The notes under the pieces are model-generated. The model worked only from the letters and a program-made list of their open reading frames with translations. It did not search any database and was not told where the DNA came from. Positions 20,362 through 46,196 of a stretch of DNA of 46,196 nucleotides are shown here, piece after piece. Made by a program: the position numbers and the translations under genes. The stretch's first letter is position 1; the number at the start of each line of letters is the position of its first letter. This DNA comes from Planctomycetota bacterium. Its GTDB lineage: Bacteria; Planctomycetota; GCA-002687715; DRQF01. The stretch spans positions 1 through 46,196 of the forward strand of contig JAZGFI010000027.1 in the NCBI GenBank assembly GCA_036479435.1, written 5' to 3'.

Positions 20362-21573
20362 ATGCCGATTTTCGAGTACCGAGCCTACGACGAAAGTGGC
20401 AATACGCGAGCGGGCATTGTCGATGCTGACACCGCAGCGGCCGCGCGTCTCAAACTTCGGGCGGATCGAGTTCACGTTTTTGAGATTGAAGAGCTTAAAG
20501 AAGGCAAGGGCTCAGGCTCGACGCGCAAGTTTCGCCTGAAGCGCAATGCCGTCGGCGAGCTCGCCATCGTCACCCGACAATTCGCGACGCTGCTCAATGC
20601 GGGGATTCCGGTCGTCGATGCCTTGAAGGCGCTCATCGACCAAGTCGAAAGTCGCGACATGGAGCAGGTCTTTCGCGACGTGCGGGAAAAAGTCACTCAA
20701 GGACTGACGATCGGAGAGGCGATCGGAAACCACCCGACGTTTTTTAGCGAGCTCTACATCAACATGGTCAAGGCCGGCGAGGCTTCGGGCAACCTCGATG
20801 AGATCATGAAGCGCCTCGCCGATTACCTGCAGAAACAAAACCGGGTCCGCAACAAAGTTAGTGCGGCGATGGCCTACCCCATCATCATGATTGCGGTTGG
20901 CGTCATCGTGGTATCGGTCTTGCTCACAGTCGTCGTGCCGAAAATTCAAAACATCTTCCGCGAAACGGACCGGACCTTGCCCGGCATCACCAAGCTGCTG
21001 ATCTTCATGTCGGAGTTCATGCTCAGTTGGTGGTGGGCGCTCGGGACAGTCGCAATTGGTGGATTCATCTTGTTCAAGGTCTGGGCGCGCTCTGAAAAGG
21101 GCTCGATGCGCTGGCATACGATTTTGATGAAAATTCCGGTGTTCGGCATCCTCTACCGCAAGCAGGCCATCGCGCGCTTTGCGACCACGATGGCCACTTT
21201 GCTCCGATCGGGCCTTCCGGTCCTGCAATGCCTCACCATCGTGCAGAATGTCGTTCAGAATAAACTCATGGCGAAGGCCGTGGGCGACATCCACGATTCC
21301 ATCCTCGAGGGCACCGACATCGCAACACCACTGGCCAAGACGGGAATCTTTCCGCCAATGGTGGGTTATATGGTCGCAACCGGCGAACAGTCTGGACAGT
21401 TGGAGGAGATCCTTTTTAAGGTCTCCGAGGCCTACGATGAAGAGGTCGACGTCGCGACGCAAAAGATGACATCGATGATGGAACCTCTTATCATTGTGAT
21501 ACTTGCGGTCGTCGTTGGGTTTATCGTACTCGCGATCGTGATCCCGATGATCCAGATGAGTGGGCTTCAATAA
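20362..21573 (+). CDS. gspF: type II secretion inner membrane platform protein
   Basis: TRQFATLLNAGIP, AGEASGNL, AMAYP, GEQSGQLE, EPLII. Confidence 0.95.
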   Translation: MPIFEYRAYDESGNTRAGIVDADTAAAARLKLRADRVHVFEIEELKEGKGSGSTRKFRLKRNAVGELAIVTRQFATLLNAGIPVVDALKALIDQVESRDMEQVFRDVREKVTQGLTIGEAIGNHPTFFSELYINMVKAGEASGNLDEIMKRLADYLQKQNRVRNKVSAAMAYPIIMIAVGVIVVSVLLTVVVPKIQNIFRETDRTLPGITKLLIFMSEFMLSWWWALGTVAIGGFILFKVWARSEKGSMRWHTILMKIPVFGILYRKQAIARFATTMATLLRSGLPVLQCLTIVQNVVQNKLMAKAVGDIHDSILEGTDIATPLAKTGIFPPMVGYMVATGEQSGQLEEILFKVSEAYDEEVDVATQKMTSMMEPLIIVILAVVVGFIVLAIVIPMIQMSGLQ

Positions 21574-23747: not shown

Positions 23748-24934
23748 TGGCTCCATTGAAGCCCACAACATCGATCCAAGCCTCAAGTCGAGGCTTTACG
23801 CTCATCGAGGTCATGGTCGCTATCATGGTCACCGGTATTCTTTTCACCGGTTTCTTCTCGATCATCCGCACCGCCATCAACATGCAGCTCATGGTGCGCG
23901 AGTTCAGCGACGCCGAGCGGATGGGGCCAGCGATCCTCTCCCAGATCTCCGAAGACCTCCGCAACGCCTACTTTTATAACCTCGAGAACAACGATTGCTT
24001 TGAAGGCAAAAAGATCGAACGCGGCAACGACTCGCGCATGGACCAGATCCATTTTCTGACGACCCGCACTTCGCTCGTGGCGGATGAAGCCATCCCCAGT
24101 AACGCTGATTTGGACATTGGCCGCGGCAGTCCGCTGAGCGAGGTCAGCTACATGCTGCGCGAGTCCAAAAACGGCTACTTCGAGCTGTGCCGCCGCGAGC
24201 AGCCCTTCATCGATGAGCATCCCTTCAAGGGCGGTTATTTCCGCCTGATCTGCGACCGCATCTTGAGTTTCAAAGTCCAATACACCGGCTGGGACTTCGG
24301 AGAGAGCGACGACTCCCCTTTCGGCGACAACGACCGTGGCCGCGACAATACCGACACTCCTAGTTCTGGCAGTGCTGGAAGCGCGGGTTCAAACGGCAGC
24401 AATGGCGCCATCGCCGGAGCCAACGGCAAAGGCAACGGCAACGGCAACGAAGAAAACGAAAACGGCGACAACGAGGACGAAAACGGCGAGTTGGTCTGGG
24501 AGGACGACTGGTCGGCCCGCGACCGCGGCTCAATGCCCGTTGCCGTCAAGATCGAACTCGTCCTCTCGCCCGATGTCGATCCCGCGGTCATGCGACGCAT
24601 GACTCACGATGGCCGTGACGGCGAACTAGAAAAGTCCTACCTGCACATCATCCTCTTGCCTCAGTACCGCGAAGATCCCGAATCAACGCGCGCAACTTCG
24701 AGCTGGCAAGGCAACGTCGCCGAACCCCAAGCAGGCACCACCGGAGTCGCGGGTGGCCTCAACGGCCGCGGGGCCCGCGGCGGAGGAGCCAACGGTCAAC
24801 GCGGAGCTCGTGGAGACCAAAATGGACGCGGCAACGGCAACCGAGGCAACACCGGCACCAACATCCTCGGCGGCAGCCGCGGCAACAACGGCGGAAACAA
24901 CCGCCTCGCCGACATCCTCCGCGGCGGCGGCTAA
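23747..24934 (+). CDS. gspJ: minor pseudopilin (GspJ-like) with Gly/Asn/Arg-rich regions
   Basis: G|FTLIEVMVAI, ISEDLRNA, EVSY, W..DW...MPVAVKIEL; TAATG coupling to the upstream gene. Confidence 0.78.
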   Translation: MAPLKPTTSIQASSRGFTLIEVMVAIMVTGILFTGFFSIIRTAINMQLMVREFSDAERMGPAILSQISEDLRNAYFYNLENNDCFEGKKIERGNDSRMDQIHFLTTRTSLVADEAIPSNADLDIGRGSPLSEVSYMLRESKNGYFELCRREQPFIDEHPFKGGYFRLICDRILSFKVQYTGWDFGESDDSPFGDNDRGRDNTDTPSSGSAGSAGSNGSNGAIAGANGKGNGNGNEENENGDNEDENGELVWEDDWSARDRGSMPVAVKIELVLSPDVDPAVMRRMTHDGRDGELEKSYLHIILLPQYREDPESTRATSSWQGNVAEPQAGTTGVAGGLNGRGARGGGANGQRGARGDQNGRGNGNRGNTGTNILGGSRGNNGGNNRLADILRGGG

Positions 24935-25025
24935 CCTGCTATACGGCGTCAGACTAAATTCTCCCGCTTTTTTAGGCCAGGCCTAAAAAAGCGGGAGAAT
25001 TTAGTCTGACGCCGTATAGCAGGTT
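24933..25025. repeat. perfect 93-bp palindrome (46-bp arms, 1-nt centre); REP/MITE-like, may also act as bidirectional terminator
   Basis: AACCTGCTATACGGCGTCAGACTAAATTCTCCCGCTTTTTTAGGCC-A-GGCCTAAAAAAGCGGGAGAATTTAGTCTGACGCCGTATAGCAGGTT, checked base by base. Confidence 0.95.
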
Positions 25026-26296
25026 TATTTTGGTTCGAGGATTTCTTGGCCGCCCATGTAGGGCTGAAGGGCTTGGGGAATCTTGATGGAGCCGTCTTTT
25101 TGTTGGTGGTTTTCCAACAGGGGGATCAACACTCGGGGCGAGGCAATGACCGTGTTGTTGAGGGTGTGGCAAAAGCGAACTTTGCCCTCGGAATCGCGGT
25201 AGCGTAGATCGAGGCGGCGCGCTTGGAACTCGTAGAAGCGGCTTGCGCTGTGGGTTTCCGAGTAGCTTTGGCGCGAGGGCATCCAGGTTTCGATATCGAA
25301 CTTTTGCACCTGCCCCGCCCCGAGATCACCGCCACAGACATTGACAACGCGGTAGGGCAATTCGAGCTTTTGAAGCACGGCTTCGGCGTTGTTGAGGATT
25401 TCCTCGTGAAGCACCTTCGATTGCTCTTCGTCGTTGGGCGCCAACACGACCTGTTCAATCTTTTGAAACTGGTGAATCCGGTAAAGGCCCTTCGTGTCGC
25501 GACCAGCGGCTCCCGCTTCACGGCGATAGCAGTTTGACCACCCACAAACTTTGATGGGCAAGTCCGCTTCGTCGAGAATCTCGCCGCGGTGGAATGCCGT
25601 CAAGGGGACTTCGGAGGTACCAATGAGGTAAAGATCATCACGTTCGGTGCAGTAGGCCTGATCCTCGCCGCCAGGGAAATACCCGGTGCCGGTCATGGTC
25701 TCGTGCCGCACAAGGTTGGGGACGATCATCGGGGTGTAACCGCGCTCGACCATGTAGTCTAGGGCCATTCGCAGGACCGAGAACTCCAGCAAGCAGGCGG
25801 CGTTGCGCAAAAAGTAAGTGCGGCTGCCAGCAATCTTTGAGGCGCGCTCGAACTCCAGCATGTCGTGAAGCTCGCCAAGCTCAAGATGTGACTTCGGTTC
25901 AAAGTCGAACTTCGGCAACTCGCCGTTGCTGCGCAACTCGACGTTCTCGGTGTCATCAGCGCCGTCGGGTACTTCGGGAGCCGGCAAGTTGGGCACCTGC
26001 AACATCAGCGCATGCAGTTGCTGCTCGATCTCCTTTGACGAAGACACCAGAGCCTTTTGCTCGTCACCAAGCGCCTTCATGGCCGCGATCGTTTGCTTTT
26101 TCGCGTCTCCATCAAGCTTAGGAATCTCCTTCGTCTTAGCATTCTGCTCGGCCTTTTTGGATTCGGCGTCGAACTTGATGCGCCGGATCTCGGCGTCGAG
26201 TTCGAGAATCCGATCCACGTCGCAGGCAATACGTTTCTTTGAGGCCCCGGCTTTCACCAGTTCCGCATGTTGACGAATGAACTTCAGATCCAGCAT
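25025..26296 (-). CDS. serS: serine--tRNA ligase
   Basis: MLDLKFIR, N-terminal coiled coil, LYLIGTSEVPL, CYRREAG, GLYRIHQFQKIE, HTLNNT. Confidence 0.97.
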   Translation of the reverse strand: MLDLKFIRQHAELVKAGASKKRIACDVDRILELDAEIRRIKFDAESKKAEQNAKTKEIPKLDGDAKKQTIAAMKALGDEQKALVSSSKEIEQQLHALMLQVPNLPAPEVPDGADDTENVELRSNGELPKFDFEPKSHLELGELHDMLEFERASKIAGSRTYFLRNAACLLEFSVLRMALDYMVERGYTPMIVPNLVRHETMTGTGYFPGGEDQAYCTERDDLYLIGTSEVPLTAFHRGEILDEADLPIKVCGWSNCYRREAGAAGRDTKGLYRIHQFQKIEQVVLAPNDEEQSKVLHEEILNNAEAVLQKLELPYRVVNVCGGDLGAGQVQKFDIETWMPSRQSYSETHSASRFYEFQARRLDLRYRDSEGKVRFCHTLNNTVIASPRVLIPLLENHQQKDGSIKIPQALQPYMGGQEILEPK

Positions 26297-39604: not shown

Positions 39605-39694
39605 GTTCGCGGTAGGGACCTCGGTTACCCGCACAGATCCCAGCGAGCGGAATTATCGCACTGGGCTCCTGCCTTAGGTAATGACGCACAGGCG
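39605..39694 (-). mobile_element. group II intron 3' remnant (IEP C-terminus, D5, partially deleted D6)
   Basis: Minus strand: CGC CTG TGC GTC ATT ACC TAA (RLCVIT*), GGCAG-GAGCCCAGTGCGATAATTCCGCTCGCTGGGATC (D5, AGC triad; 39668-39636), TGTGCGGG-TAACCGAGGTCCCTACCGCGAAC. Confidence 0.85.
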
Positions 39695-39785
39695 TAATTG
39701 ACTAAGCGTCTGCGCCATAGGTCCGGCGACTGTGGCGCTGTGGCAAAAAATTTAGAAAGAAGACGTTGACGCGGGAAGGAAAGGG

Positions 39786-44627: not shown

Positions 44628-46055
44628 TCATTGGCTCTTGCTGATCCCAAGCTTCTTCATCCGCGAACGCAGAGTGTTGGGGTGAAGATCGAGGATGAGG
44701 GCGGCGCCATGCTCGCCCGCGATTCGCCAAGAAGTTTGGCCCAAGACACTCAGGATGTGCTCGCGCTCGACTTGCTCGAGGGATCGGCGATCCTTTGCTG
44801 CGGCGAGCTCGGTTTCGAGTTTGGCCGCCGCAGGATTCTTGGCTGGCTCTCGGCCGGCGAAGGAGGCATCGAGCTGAAGGATGCCCTTGGCCGAGAGGAT
44901 GACGGCGCGCTCGATGATGTTTTGTAGTTCGCGGATGTTGCCGGGCCAATCGTAGCCCTGCAGGGCGGCTTGCACGGATTCCGGAATGGTCTCAATGGAT
45001 TTCGAGAGCTTCTTCGCAAACTTGTGCACGAAGTGGCTGATGAGCTGGGGGAGATCGTCGCGGCGATGACGCAGGGCCGCGATGGTGAGGGGGAAGACGT
45101 TGAGGCGATAGAAAAGGTCGTCGCGAAACTCCCCGGCCTCGATCATCTGTGCGAGGTCGCGATGCGTGGCGGCGACGATGCGGATGTCGGTCTTAATGGT
45201 GCGCGAGCCGCCTAAGCGCTCGAACTCTCCCTCTTGGATGACCCGTAGGAGCTTGGCTTGAAGCTCGAGGGGAAGCTCGCCGATTTCGTCGAGGAAAATC
45301 GTGCCGCCTTCGGCCAACTCAAAGCGGCCCTGGCGCTGAGACGTCGCGCCGGTGAAGGCCCCCTTTTCGTGACCGAAGAGCTCACTTTCGATCAGGTTGG
45401 AAGGCAGCGCGGCGCAGTTGACTTTGACCAAAGGGCGTTCGCTGCGCGCACTGAGATTGTGGATGGCGCGGGCGAAGAGCTCTTTGCCCACGCCGGTTTC
45501 GCCGAGGATGAGCACGGTGGCGTCGGTCGTGGCGACTTGCTCGACGAGGCGCTTGGCCTGAACCATCGCCGGGCTTTCACCGATGATCTCCTCGAAGTTT
45601 TGACTGAGCTTGATCTCTTGGCGCAGATAGAGGTTTTCGGCCTGGAGCCGTTCCTTCAAGCGCTCGACCTCCGCGTAGGCCTGGCGCAGGGCTTCTTCGC
45701 GGCGTTTGCGATCGGAGATGTCGCTGAAGGTGACGACGGCGCCGACGAGCTCGCCCTTGTCGTTGCGGACGGGTGTGCTCGAATACTCGACGGGGATGGC
45801 GCTGCCGTCCTTTTTCCAAAAGACCTCGTTGTCGACGCGGTGCACGGCGCCGTCATGGAAGGCGGCGTAAATCGGGCAGGCATGTTTGGGGTAGGGACTG
45901 CCGTTGGCTCGGGTGTGATGGGTGAGCACGTGCTGGGGCTTGCCGATGAGCTCGTCGGCCTCCCAACCGAGCATCGCGACGGCGGCCGGATTGACGAAGG
46001 TCGTTCGCCCTTCTTTATCGAGGCCGTAGATGCCTTCGCCGGCCGAGCTGAGGAT
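44628..46055 (-). CDS. PAS-domain sigma-54 activator (FhlA/NifA-like, Fis HTH), 5' end disrupted
   Basis: [39 protein letters not shown]-terminal HTH; PAS frame open upstream of ATG 45974 ([13 protein letters not shown]) until TGA at 46062-46064. Confidence 0.88.
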
Positions 46056-46074
46056 ATGGCGTCAGAATTTAGTC
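46055..46074. repeat. collapsed copy of the 24933-25025 palindrome motif (3' exon of the intron)
   Basis: Minus strand GACTAAATTC-TGACGCCATA = 24952-24961 fused to 25007-25016 (one mismatch). Confidence 0.75.
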
Positions 46075-46196
46075 GTCGGGTAGACCAGGGAGATTTTTCT
46101 CCCCAGCCCCCCACAGATCCGGACGTGCGCGATTGACGCATCCGGCTCCTCGTTAGACGGGTTCGCTAAGTGATGAGGACCGAGTGGACTGCCCGC
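46075..46196 (-). mobile_element. group II intron 3' end (continues beyond the window)
   Basis: D5 GAGCCGGATGCGTCAATCGCGCACGTCCGGATC (46148-46116), D6 GGGGGCTGGGGAGAAAAATCTCCCTGGTCTACCC with bulged A, terminal GAC. Confidence 0.93.
46166..46195 (-). CDS. C-terminal tail of a probable intron-encoded reverse transcriptase/maturase (partial)
   Basis: Reads RAVHSVLIT* and stops just before D5, where En-minus IEPs end; only 9 codons visible. Confidence 0.55.
   Translation of the reverse strand, partial: RAVHSVLIT

What the first reader, a model, noticed from the sequence alone, without database searches (positions are those of the whole stretch)
46055..46196. Candidate new system: group II intron homing into a REP/MITE-like palindrome family
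Seen: the intron ends ...CTACCCGAC and its 3' exon begins GACTAAATTC-TGACGCCATA. GACTAAATTC is exactly what follows TATACGGCGTCA in each arm of the palindrome 21 kb away, and TGACGCCRTA is that palindrome's outer arm. Predicted empty site: a hairpin TAYGGCGTCA^GACTAAATTCTGACGCCATA. Established: IIC introns target terminator or attC hairpins and other introns target IS elements; this D5 has the AGC triad and full length of non-IIC introns. Inference: a IIB-type intron uses a dispersed palindromic repeat as a multi-copy target, with 24933-25025 offering two unoccupied sites.
Basis: partly seen in the sequence, partly recalled or inferred. Interest (0 to 1): 0.85.

Follow-up and report, generated by a model that had tools for sequence, protein, structure and literature searches.

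The report
Group II intron homing into transposase-linked repeats
A self-splicing mobile intron has copied itself about 15 times into one exact spot of a small repeat scattered behind genes in this bacterial genome, and a second, unrelated intron uses the same repeat, so the repeat serves as a safe landing pad for such introns.

Summary
The window is a whole contig that ends inside a 2031-nt group II intron on the minus strand. The draft genome holds 14 intron 3' ends and 15 intron 5' ends.

- **Target:** 13 of 15 5' exons end in the repeat head (..TAYACGGNGTCA). Ten of 14 3' exons, the window's truncated one included, continue with the repeat body (GACTAAATTC...).
- **Pairing:** EBS1 (UGACGC) pairs with GCGUCA and EBS3 (C288) pairs with G+1. 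Both covary with the exons in 14 related introns. No EBS2 partner was found.
- **The repeat:** it is the terminal inverted repeat of a RAYT-like Y1 (IS200-type) transposase gene. Its 93-nt perfect doublets are REPIN/MITE-like. A single arm does not fold, so it fits TIR-type rather than classical REP.
- **The hairpin is not needed:** single arms are used too, and a sister intron in another Planctomycetota genome sits in a non-palindromic copy.
- **Intron type:** IIB-like, probably IIE/IIF-like, without an endonuclease domain, and not IIC.
- **Second intron:** a different intron (40% IEP identity) targets the same repeat head 9 bp away on the other strand.

The window copy's own 5' exon and the proposed mini-hairpin empty site remain unresolved. 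This is a new variant of known intron behaviour.

The parts
46075..46196 (-). Last 122 nt of group II intron A (end of domain 4, D5, D6, 3' splice site ...CUACCCGAC). The contig breaks inside the multi-copy intron.
   Evidence: Rfam RF00029 at 46150..46075. These 122 nt are 100% identical to 13 other contig ends or interior sites. The full copy is G000:C135:664-2694, 2031 nt.
46055..46074 (-). 3' exon of the window copy: GACTAAATTC (repeat body next to the insertion site) joined directly to TGACGCCATA (outer part of the opposite arm). It is a truncated derivative of the palindromic doublet.
   Evidence: This 20-mer occurs only here in the genome.
44628..46061 (-). Sigma-54-dependent activator ORF (PAS, AAA+, HTH_8) that directly abuts the repeat remnant. 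The frame is open from 46061, but an in-frame TGA precedes it and the first start codon is at 45974, so the gene looks 5'-disrupted.
   Evidence: Pfam: Sigma54_activat 254 bits, PAS 54.6 bits from residue 1, HTH_8. ORF list.
24933..25025 (.). Intact 93-nt palindromic doublet of the family-1 repeat (REPIN/MITE-like). It exactly fills the gap between two convergent ORFs. It carries two free intron-A sites (+ strand between 24951 and 24952; - strand between 25007 and 25006) and two free intron-B sites (9 bp further out, on the opposite strand in each arm).
   Evidence: Intron-B site inferred.

Best explanation
Intron A is a 2031-nt, IIB-like (probably IIE/IIF-like) group II intron. Its protein has reverse transcriptase and maturase domains but no endonuclease domain. 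It retrohomes site-specifically into the 'head' of a dispersed repeat family (..CTATACGGCGTCA^GACTAAATTCTCCCGC..).

Shown:
- The repeat is the terminal inverted repeat of a RAYT-like Y1 transposase gene.
- Its transposase-less doublets are perfect ~93-nt palindromes that sit directly behind stop codons.
- The intron RNA pairs its EBS1 loop (UGACGC, intron 223-228) with the last six exon bases (GCGUCA).
- EBS3 (C288) pairs with the first 3'-exon base (G).
- About a quarter of family-1 arms are occupied, never both arms of one doublet.
- The flanking arms differ from copy to copy while the intron ends are identical. The copies therefore arose by separate insertions into pre-existing repeats.

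Inferred:
- Lacking an endonuclease, the intron inserts into transiently single-stranded DNA at replication forks and is primed by nascent DNA.
- Sitting in sense just downstream of genes, it is transcribed by read-through and splices out of the 3' UTR, restoring the repeat. Insertions should therefore cost the host little, and the repeat family supplies dozens of fresh targets.
- Something beyond EBS1/EBS3 (protein contacts or an unrecognised pairing with positions -7 to -12) gives the preference for family 1.
For: Intron identity:
- RF00029 and RF02005 (144.7 bits) match.
- TIGR04416 scores 341 bits against a cut-off of 300.
- RVT_1 is the only Pfam hit, so no HNH domain.
- The intron starts GUGCG and ends AC.

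Copies: 14 3' ends and 15 5' ends, all 100% identical over 58-127 nt.

Target:
- 13 of 15 5' exons carry the family-1 head, and 12 of 14 3' exons carry a family-1-like body.
- 41 intact arms exist, 8 of them opposite an occupied arm.
- Family 1 is occupied in 13 of 54 arms, against 1 of 36 for family 2, which shares GCGTCA^GAC (Fisher p 0.007).

Pairing across 15 introns (visible):
- Exon positions -1, -2, -4, -5 and -6 pair with intron 223, 224, 226, 227 and 228 in 11, 14, 15, 12 and 11 of 15.
- Exon +1 pairs with intron 288 in 15 of 15, with 4 pair types.

Repeat and transposase:
- The C289 ORF scores Y1_Tnp 31.5 bits against a cut-off of 23, and REP_Tyr_transpos E 2.7e-16. Inverted family-1 arms flank it.
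- The same layout occurs in G031.

Sister intron L002 (73% IEP identity) has the same 5' exon ..CTGTACGGCGTCA directly after a stop codon.

Independent insertions: at least 5 different 5' heads and at least 3 loop variants flank identical intron ends.
Against: - No EBS2-IBS2 pairing could be found for G000 or L002. The discrimination between family 1 and family 2, and against the 833 GCGTCAG sites in the genome, is therefore unexplained.
- Mobility, splicing and expression are inferred from sequence only.
- The genome is a 299-contig draft. Copy number comes from junction counts, and 5'/3' partners are mostly unassigned.
- The bias toward 'sense, just behind a gene' is only a trend: 11 of 15 occupied sites against 26 of 41 free arms.
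- The GC-skew hint of a strand bias is weak. Skew is positive on the intron strand in 11 of 15 contigs with a 5' junction and 11 of 14 with a 3' junction, and skew correlates with ORF strand bias at only rho 0.26.
- The transposase matches lie below NCBIfam's curated cut-off (59.8 and 74.1 bits against 80).
- A single arm does not fold, so the repeat is not a classical REP.
Confidence: 0.87

Rival explanations
1. The intron is passive cargo. One repeat doublet that had acquired an intron was then spread as a 2.1-kb composite element by the Y1 transposase, so the association reflects transposition of the repeat and not intron homing.
For: The intron ends are 100% identical in all copies. The repeats belong to a transposase-linked, presumably mobile family.
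Against: The repeat sequence touching the intron differs between copies. The 5' heads read CTATACGG, TTGTACGG, TCATACGG, TCGTACGG, TCATGCGG and GTTATACGG, and the inner loops read TCAAA, TCAGA and TCTGA. Copies also sit in single arms, in a family-2 repeat (C18/C144) and in a non-repeat site (C135) that keep only the EBS1/EBS3-matching bases. EBS1 and EBS3 fit the site and covary in relatives.
Confidence: 0.05
2. The intron recognises the hairpin structure itself, as IIC introns recognise terminator or attC stem-loops, and the sequence match is secondary.
For: Nine of 14 3' exons continue into a full palindrome, and the window copy into a truncated one. The intron lacks an endonuclease domain, as IIC introns do. 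No EBS2 was found.
Against: Insertion is inside the 5' arm, not after a stem-loop. In a folded hairpin IBS1 would be sequestered by a sequence identical to EBS1. Non-palindromic arms are occupied (C55, C249), and L002's site has no hairpin. Occupancy is 13 of 54 family-1 arms overall, and both doublet arms and single arms are among the occupied ones. A split of that rate between the two kinds was tallied by eye from the listing, not computed. EBS1 is a full 6 bp, and D5 has the full stem length of non-IIC introns with a 5-nt loop.
Confidence: 0.05
3. The association is an accident of a few bases. The intron targets GCGTCA^G anywhere, and the repeat is simply the commonest carrier of that heptamer.
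For: A non-repeat site (C135, GTGTCA^A) and a family-2 site are also occupied.
Against: GCGTCAG occurs 833 times and GCGTCAGAC 91 times in the assembly, yet 13 of 15 insertions are in the 54 family-1 arms. Family 2, with 36 arms carrying GCGTCA^GAC, has one insertion.
Confidence: 0.03

Closest known systems
Bacterial class C (IIC) group II introns that insert after intrinsic terminators or into attC sites
   Same: An endonuclease-less intron that multiplies in intergenic palindromic DNA just downstream of genes, in sense orientation, with many near-identical copies.
   Different: IIC introns insert after a stem-loop that they recognise as structure, with a short IBS1 and no EBS2. They have a reduced ribozyme and a shorter D5 (recalled, and as summarised in PMC3753933 passages). 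Here the insertion is inside one arm and is defined by a 6-bp EBS1 pairing plus EBS3. Single arms are also used, and the ribozyme is IIB-like.
RmInt1 and relatives (class D, Sinorhizobium meliloti), which home into insertion sequence ISRm2011-2
   Same: An endonuclease-less IIB-type intron whose natural home is another multi-copy mobile element (abstract of PMC1802570 in the listing).
   Different: The target here is the non-coding terminal repeat of a Y1/HUH transposase and its transposase-less doublets, not an IS with a DDE transposase. Class D membership was not tested.
REP-targeting insertion sequences (ISPpu9, ISPpu10, ISPsy8, ISPa11, IS1397) and the P. putida KT2440 group II intron (2 of 9 copies REP-associated)
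   Same: Extragenic repeat families used as landing sites by other mobile elements. The table in Tobes and Pareja 2006 (PMC1525189, passage seen) already lists a group II intron with a weak REP association.
   Different: Those elements are DNA transposons, and the P. putida intron association is 22%. Here 13 of 15 copies are at one exact base of the repeat, with demonstrable RNA-DNA pairing, and two different introns share the repeat.
REPIN-RAYT systems (Bertels and Rainey 2011; Nunvar 2010) and TIRtrons/TIRYT (Di Nocera 2013, PMC3733652)
   Same: A Y1/HUH transposase gene flanked by inverted copies of a repeat that is also dispersed, often as inverted doublets, downstream of genes (sections 6 and 16 read).
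   Different: A single arm is not a 20-40 nt hairpin. The transposase is about 330 aa with a long C-terminal extension and scores below NCBIfam's RAYT cut-off. It fits the 'TIR-associated' type better than classical GTAG REPs. The head contains CGTC, but membership in the CGTC families was not tested.
Group IIE / IIF introns (Nagy et al. 2013, PMC3753933)
   Same: A small IIB-like ribozyme (about 660 nt without the ORF), a 5-nt D5 loop, and an IEP without an endonuclease domain. In that paper the EBS2-IBS2 pairing was dispensable for splicing (passages).
   Different: No phylogenetic placement was done. The other defining features (alpha' position, extra D1d3 bulge) were not examined.

Membership tests
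Mobile group II intron | Domain 5/6 and domain 1-4 ribozyme structure | tested here: met
   RF00029 at 42.9 bits (gathering score 40). RF02005 at 144.7 bits (gathering score 49).
Mobile group II intron | Intron-encoded reverse transcriptase/maturase in domain 4 | tested here: met
   TIGR04416 at 341 bits against a cut-off of 300. RVT_1 at 121 bits. YADD is present in the translation.
Mobile group II intron | EBS1-IBS1 pairing with the 5' exon | tested here: met
   UGACGC (223-228) pairs with GCGUCA. It covaries with the exon in 11-15 of 15 introns at 5 of the 6 positions.
IIB-type (not IIA) | EBS3-IBS3 pair with the first 3'-exon base | tested here: met
   Intron position 288 pairs with exon +1 in 15 of 15 introns, with 4 pair types.
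IIB-type | EBS2-IBS2 pairing | tested here: inconclusive
   Relatives show 4-5 bp complements from the internal loop around 194-205 (manual reading). No column reaches more than 12 of 15, and G000 and L002 have no partner for -7..-13.
IIC class | Insertion directly after a terminator/attC stem-loop; reduced D5; short EBS1 | tested here: not met
   The site lies inside the 5' arm, single arms are used, EBS1 is 6 bp, and D5 has full stem length.
IIE/IIF lineages | 5-nt D5 loop, small IIB-like ribozyme, IEP without En domain | tested here: met
   D5 loop is CAAUC. The ribozyme is about 660 nt. Pfam gives only RVT_1. Criteria taken from PMC3753933 passages.
IIE/IIF lineages | Phylogenetic placement of the IEP within class E or F | not tested
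   No reference class sequences were at hand. Solved RTs of the IIC, ML and CL classes are all about equally distant (119-156 bits).
REP/REPIN-RAYT system | Y1/HUH transposase gene flanked by inverted copies of the dispersed repeat | tested here: met
   The C289 ORF is flanked by family-1 arms at 21239(+) and 22391(-). The same layout occurs in G031:C208.
REP/REPIN-RAYT system | Transposase passes the curated RAYT model | tested here: inconclusive
   NF047646 scores 59.8 and 74.1 bits (76.7 and 62 in the genome scan) against a cut-off of 80. Pfam Y1_Tnp scores 31.5 and 22.4 against 23.
REP/REPIN-RAYT system | Each repeat unit is itself a short imperfect palindrome (hairpin) | tested here: not met
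   A single arm folds at -1.9 kcal/mol, z +1.0. Only the doublet is a hairpin. It fits TIR-type repeats (TIRtron) better.
Intrinsic terminator | GC-rich stem followed by a T run | tested here: not met
   0 terminator-like sites in 24600-25400.

The most novel reading that the evidence does not exclude
The repeat head may be a three-way hub. A Y1/HUH transposase and two unrelated endonuclease-less introns all act on the same ~20 bases of single-stranded DNA. The boldest reading not excluded is functional coupling. In one direction, the introns exploit the single-stranded or nicked state that the transposase or the palindrome creates at replication forks, as a substitute for their missing endonuclease. 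In the other direction, they act as hyperparasites that split the repeat head from its body and so disable the repeat's mobilisation. Unchecked earlier notes of this scan report intron-in-REP cases in several other genomes. Together with these, REP-type repeats could be a general, so far unnamed, target class for bacterial group II introns.
Probability: 0.12. Interest if true: 0.8.

Novelty: new variant of a known kind. Interest (0 to 1): 0.58.

Why it matters
Bacterial group II introns survive by finding harmless, renewable targets. Terminators, attC sites and IS elements are the known ones. This case adds transposase-linked extragenic repeats (REPIN/TIR type) as a precise, base-pair-defined target, and two different introns use it in one genome.

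It gives a natural example of a retroelement nested in the non-autonomous repeats of a DNA transposon. It also gives a clean set of occupied and empty sites (13 against 41) for studying target rules of IIE/IIF-like introns whose EBS2 role is unclear.

There is a practical warning for genome assembly and annotation: these introns break contigs exactly at such repeats.

Tried and rejected
- **EBS2.** Direct motif search, a 5-mer complement scan over a 13-intron alignment and a column-wise covariation scan found no convincing partner for exon -7..-13 in G000 or L002. The conserved loop CUGUGUCACUGAG looked complementary at first. It is invariant among relatives with unrelated exons, so I rejected it as EBS2.
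- **5' exon of the window copy.** DNA folding of all 15 x 14 exon pairings ranks C94 first for C27, but only -10.4 against -9.9 kcal/mol, which is not decisive. C94's neighbouring gene gave no synteny clue.
- **Empty-site allele or ortholog.** The best matches among 8 family-level relatives cover only the AAA+ part of the sigma-54 activator at 50% identity or less. An exact 25-mer from the 3' exon found 0 metagenome contigs.
- **More junctions in metagenomes.** The pattern RTACGGCGTCAGTGCGCYRG gave 12 hits. None continues as an intron, so all are chance.
- **The repeat outside this genome.** The 26-mer was found in 0 of 30 related genomes. A related head occurs in G031 only.
- **REP targeting in the sister genome.** G031 has one full copy, in a repeat, and two short 3' fragments in non-repeat DNA.
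- **IIC-like structure recognition, cargo transport and the terminator reading** were considered and rejected (see rivals).
- **Strand bias.** GC skew and ORF orientation gave only a weak trend.
- **Class assignment by solved RT structures** was uninformative.
- **Literature.** Five full-text searches found no paper describing a group II intron specialised for REP/REPIN/RAYT repeats. The only co-mention is one table row in PMC1525189. Subscription journals are not covered, and supplements were not read.
Full report
**What is at the coordinates.**

The window is an entire contig (G000:C27) of a 299-contig, 5.47-Mb draft genome. On its minus strand Rfam finds group II intron domains 5-6 at 46150..46075 (42.9 bits, gathering score 40). 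The intron ends ...CUACCCGAC at 46075, and the contig stops 122 nt into the intron. The 3' exon reads GACTAAATTC TGACGCCATA and then runs into a PAS/sigma-54-activator ORF.

At 24933-25025 there is a perfect 46+1+46-nt palindrome. Its DNA fold is -57.4 kcal/mol, z -17.6. It exactly fills the gap between two convergent ORFs. In each arm TATACGGCGTCA is followed by GACTAAATTC.

**Genome-wide mapping.**

The terminal 122 nt of the intron occur at 100% identity at 14 places, 13 of them at contig ends. C135 holds a complete copy: 2031 nt, GUGCG...GAC, with a 455-aa ORF.

3' exons:
- 9 of 14 begin GAC[TC][TA]AATTCTCCCG.
- The window copy is a truncated tenth case.
- Two are diverged family-1-like bodies (C62, C55).
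- One is a second repeat family (C144), and one is unrelated DNA (C135).
- Nine continue into the opposite arm of a palindrome.

5' exons: all 15 end in GTCA, 12 in GCGTCA, and 12 in ACGG[C/T/A]GTCA. Thirteen carry a family-1 head, one carries family 2 (C18), and one is unrelated (C135).

The prediction 'the 5' exon ends ...GGCGTCA before GUGYG' therefore holds for the family, whichever contig is the window's partner. Which one it is stays open. C94 fits best, but only marginally.

**Free sites.**

- The uninterrupted site TACGGCGTCA^GACTAAATTCTCCCGC occurs 41 times at up to 4 mismatches. At up to 3 mismatches it occurs 39 times, against 0 for the reversed control, and in 0 of 30 related genomes.
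- Eight of the 41 free arms are the partner arm of an occupied doublet.
- No 3' exon runs into a second intron, so no doublet is seen occupied in both arms.
- Non-palindromic single arms are occupied as well (C55, C249).

**Separate insertions, not cargo.**

The intron ends are identical, but the touching repeat sequence differs. There are at least five 5' head variants and at least three inner-loop variants. One copy is in family 2 and one is in non-repeat DNA that keeps only G[CT]GTCA^[GA]AC. This is the pattern of repeated retrohoming plus rare ectopic events. It is not the pattern of a single composite unit being transposed.

**How the site is read.**

I aligned domain 1 of this intron with 14 relatives that have unrelated exons.
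- The loop at intron 223-228 (UGACGC) changes in step with the last six exon bases. Pairing holds in 11, 14, 15, 12 and 11 of 15 introns for -1, -2, -4, -5 and -6 and is visible by eye.
- Intron position 288 pairs with the first 3'-exon base in 15 of 15 introns with four pair types. This is an EBS3-IBS3 pair, a IIB/IIC trait.
- No EBS2 partner for -7..-13 was found in this intron or its sister.
- Specificity clearly exceeds EBS1+EBS3. GCGTCAG occurs 833 times. A second repeat family has 35 free arms carrying GCGTCA^GAC (TTCGCGTCA^GACGATTTTCAC) but only one insertion, against 13 of 54 for family 1 (Fisher p 0.007).

**What kind of intron.**

- The IEP passes TIGR04416 (341 against 300 bits).
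- RVT_1 is its only Pfam hit, and it ends 16 nt before D5, so it has no endonuclease domain.
- D1-D4 matches RF02005.
- D5 has full stem length with a 5-nt loop. It also has a G.A opposite the triad G that is conserved across the clade.
- The ribozyme is about 660 nt.
- Passages of Nagy et al. 2013 (PMC3753933) give the 5-nt D5 loop and the small IIB-like ribozyme as features of the IIE/IIF lineages. That paper also reports EBS2-IBS2 as dispensable for splicing.
- Solved RTs of the IIC, ML and CL classes are equally distant.

I therefore call it IIB-like, probably IIE/IIF-like, and not IIC. No phylogeny was done.

**What the repeat is.**

The closest IEP relative (L002, 73% identity, a Planctomycetota MAG) has the 5' exon ...TAG CTGTACGGCGTCA and a non-palindromic 3' exon GTCAATTTCTCGCCACC. 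That genome (G031) holds a related repeat, TACGGCGTCAG[TC]CAnnTTCTC, with 20 hits against 1 for the control. On its contig C208, two inverted copies flank a 335-aa ORF with HUH and Tyr motifs.

G000 has exactly two homologues.
- The one on C289 scores Y1_Tnp 31.5 bits against a cut-off of 23, and REP_Tyr_transpos 59.8 bits, E 2.7e-16, below the cut-off of 80. Inverted family-1 arms flank it with heads outward.
- The one on C144 is flanked by a third, related repeat.

The dispersed palindromes are therefore transposase-less doublets of this element's terminal repeats. They are REPIN- or MITE-like. A single arm has no hairpin of its own. The family thus fits the 'TIRtron/TIRYT' type of Di Nocera et al. 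2013 (PMC3733652, sections 6 and 16 read) better than classical REPs. The head conserved between the two genomes and between families 1 and 2 (..CGTCAG.C) is exactly what the intron reads.

**Position relative to genes.**

- In 26 of 41 free arms and 11 of 15 occupied sites, a same-strand ORF of at least 100 aa ends within 80 nt upstream. Among those 26 free arms the median distance from the stop codon to TACGG is about 9.5 nt, so the repeat abuts the stop codon.
- Intron copies are thus mostly in sense just behind a gene. This is a trend, not a significant excess.
- GC skew is positive on the intron strand for 11 of 15 contigs with a 5' junction and 11 of 14 with a 3' junction. Skew is only weakly informative here (rho 0.26).
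- Read-through expression, harmless splicing from 3' UTRs and fork-dependent priming are inferences from the known biology of endonuclease-less introns.

**A second intron on the same repeat.**

The genome encodes at least five distinct full-length IEPs. One of them (intron B, C24; RF02005 at 166.6 bits) has an IEP 40% identical to that of intron A.
- Three 5' junctions read ...GAATTTAGTCTGAC[G/T]CCGT|.
- Four 3' junctions read |A[TC]A[GA]C[AC]GGTT.
- It therefore inserts into the bottom strand of the same head, between CTAT and ACGG, 9 bp from intron A's site.
- By homology, its EBS1-position loop (ACGGUG) and EBS3-position base (U) fit CGCCGU and A+1.

Two unrelated introns have converged on one repeat head.

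**The window copy.**

- Its 3' exon is a unique truncated derivative: head-proximal GACTAAATTC joined to the outer TGACGCCATA. This 20-mer occurs only here, and no free mini-hairpin of this form exists elsewhere.
- The repeat similarity stops at ...CCATAT.
- The adjoining sigma-54 activator frame has its PAS domain starting at residue 1 but no start codon before 45974.
- The gene therefore looks disrupted by the repeat/intron insertion or by a later deletion.
- If C94 is the partner, removing 32 nt of repeat would give ATG AGG ATC CTC..., that is [10 protein letters not shown]... This is a suggestive reading by inspection and is unproven.

**Literature and earlier notes.**

- Five full-text searches found no description of a group II intron specialised for REP/REPIN/RAYT-type repeats. 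The nearest is a table row in Tobes and Pareja 2006 giving a P. putida group II intron as REP-associated in 2 of 9 copies.
- Sonbol and Siam 2021 (abstract and section 12) report IIB introns next to attC-like hairpins.
- Earlier unchecked notes of this scan report intron-in-REP cases in other genomes, one with a related IEP. I did not test them. They suggest the behaviour recurs.

**Verdict.**

The feature is real and strongly supported as repeat-targeted retrohoming. It is a new variant of known group II intron target specialisation, not a new kind of system.

Noticed in passing
G000:C24:1-1947 (minus), with junctions on C172, C194, C185, C211, C237, C247: A second, different group II intron (IEP 40% identical to intron A; RF02005 at 166.6 bits) is inserted in the same repeat family. 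It sits on the opposite strand, 9 bp further out (..GACGCCGT^ATAGCAGG..). There are three 5' and four 3' junctions. It starts GAUGCG instead of GUGCG.
   Followed up: partly
window 39606-39700 (minus): A 5'-truncated fragment of intron B (end of the IEP ORF, D5, and D6 with a small deletion), followed by CTGGCAGGTTAG, the outer end of a repeat arm. It is below Rfam's gathering score.
   Followed up: partly
G000, 35 sites (e.g. C18:54580, C66:11504); C144:44100-45486: Two further related repeat families. Family 2 is AAACCC..TTCGCGTCAGACGATTTTCACTACCCTTT (35 free arms, mostly single). A third type, CGCCGTCGCTTTTCGGTACCACCCT, flanks the second RAYT-like gene on C144.
   Followed up: partly
window 24926-25034 and the 26 free arms: The outer end of the repeat (TAA ACC[TG]GCTA..) abuts or overlaps the stop codon of the upstream gene. 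The median distance from stop codon to TACGG is about 9.5 nt. This suggests either a TAA/TTA-containing insertion target or that the repeat supplies the stop codon.
   Followed up: no
intron A D5 (window 46104-46143, minus) and relatives L002-L059: In D5 the G of the AGC triad faces an A (G.A) instead of the usual G.U. This holds in all 12 aligned members of the clade.
   Followed up: no
G000 contigs C57, C159, C191, C24, C135 (plus fragments on C84, C26, C253 and others): The genome carries at least five distinct full-length group II intron RT genes and several fragments, an unusually rich intron load.
   Followed up: no
G000:C135:471-558: An ~88-nt sequence 100 nt upstream of the full intron copy recurs at 94-96% identity near the ends of more than 30 contigs. 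It is probably the end of a high-copy insertion sequence. An IS3-type transposase pair lies at C135:4469-5934.
   Followed up: no
G000: C93 end / C58 end, C82 end, C263 end, C130:4426-4560: Partial tandem duplications of the repeat head or of the whole arm lie next to intron junctions (e.g. the head repeated twice before the intron). These might mark tandem intron copies or repeat-cluster formation.
   Followed up: no
L023 (Halomonas MAG) 2904 onward; L038/L055 (Tundrisphaera lichenicola): In L023 the 3' exon of a related intron is the 5' end of another copy of the same intron (tandem or nested introns). In Tundrisphaera, two copies have similar repeat-like 5' exons (AACCAAAAA.CAA.TCTGAC) and repetitive 3' exons.
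   Followed up: no
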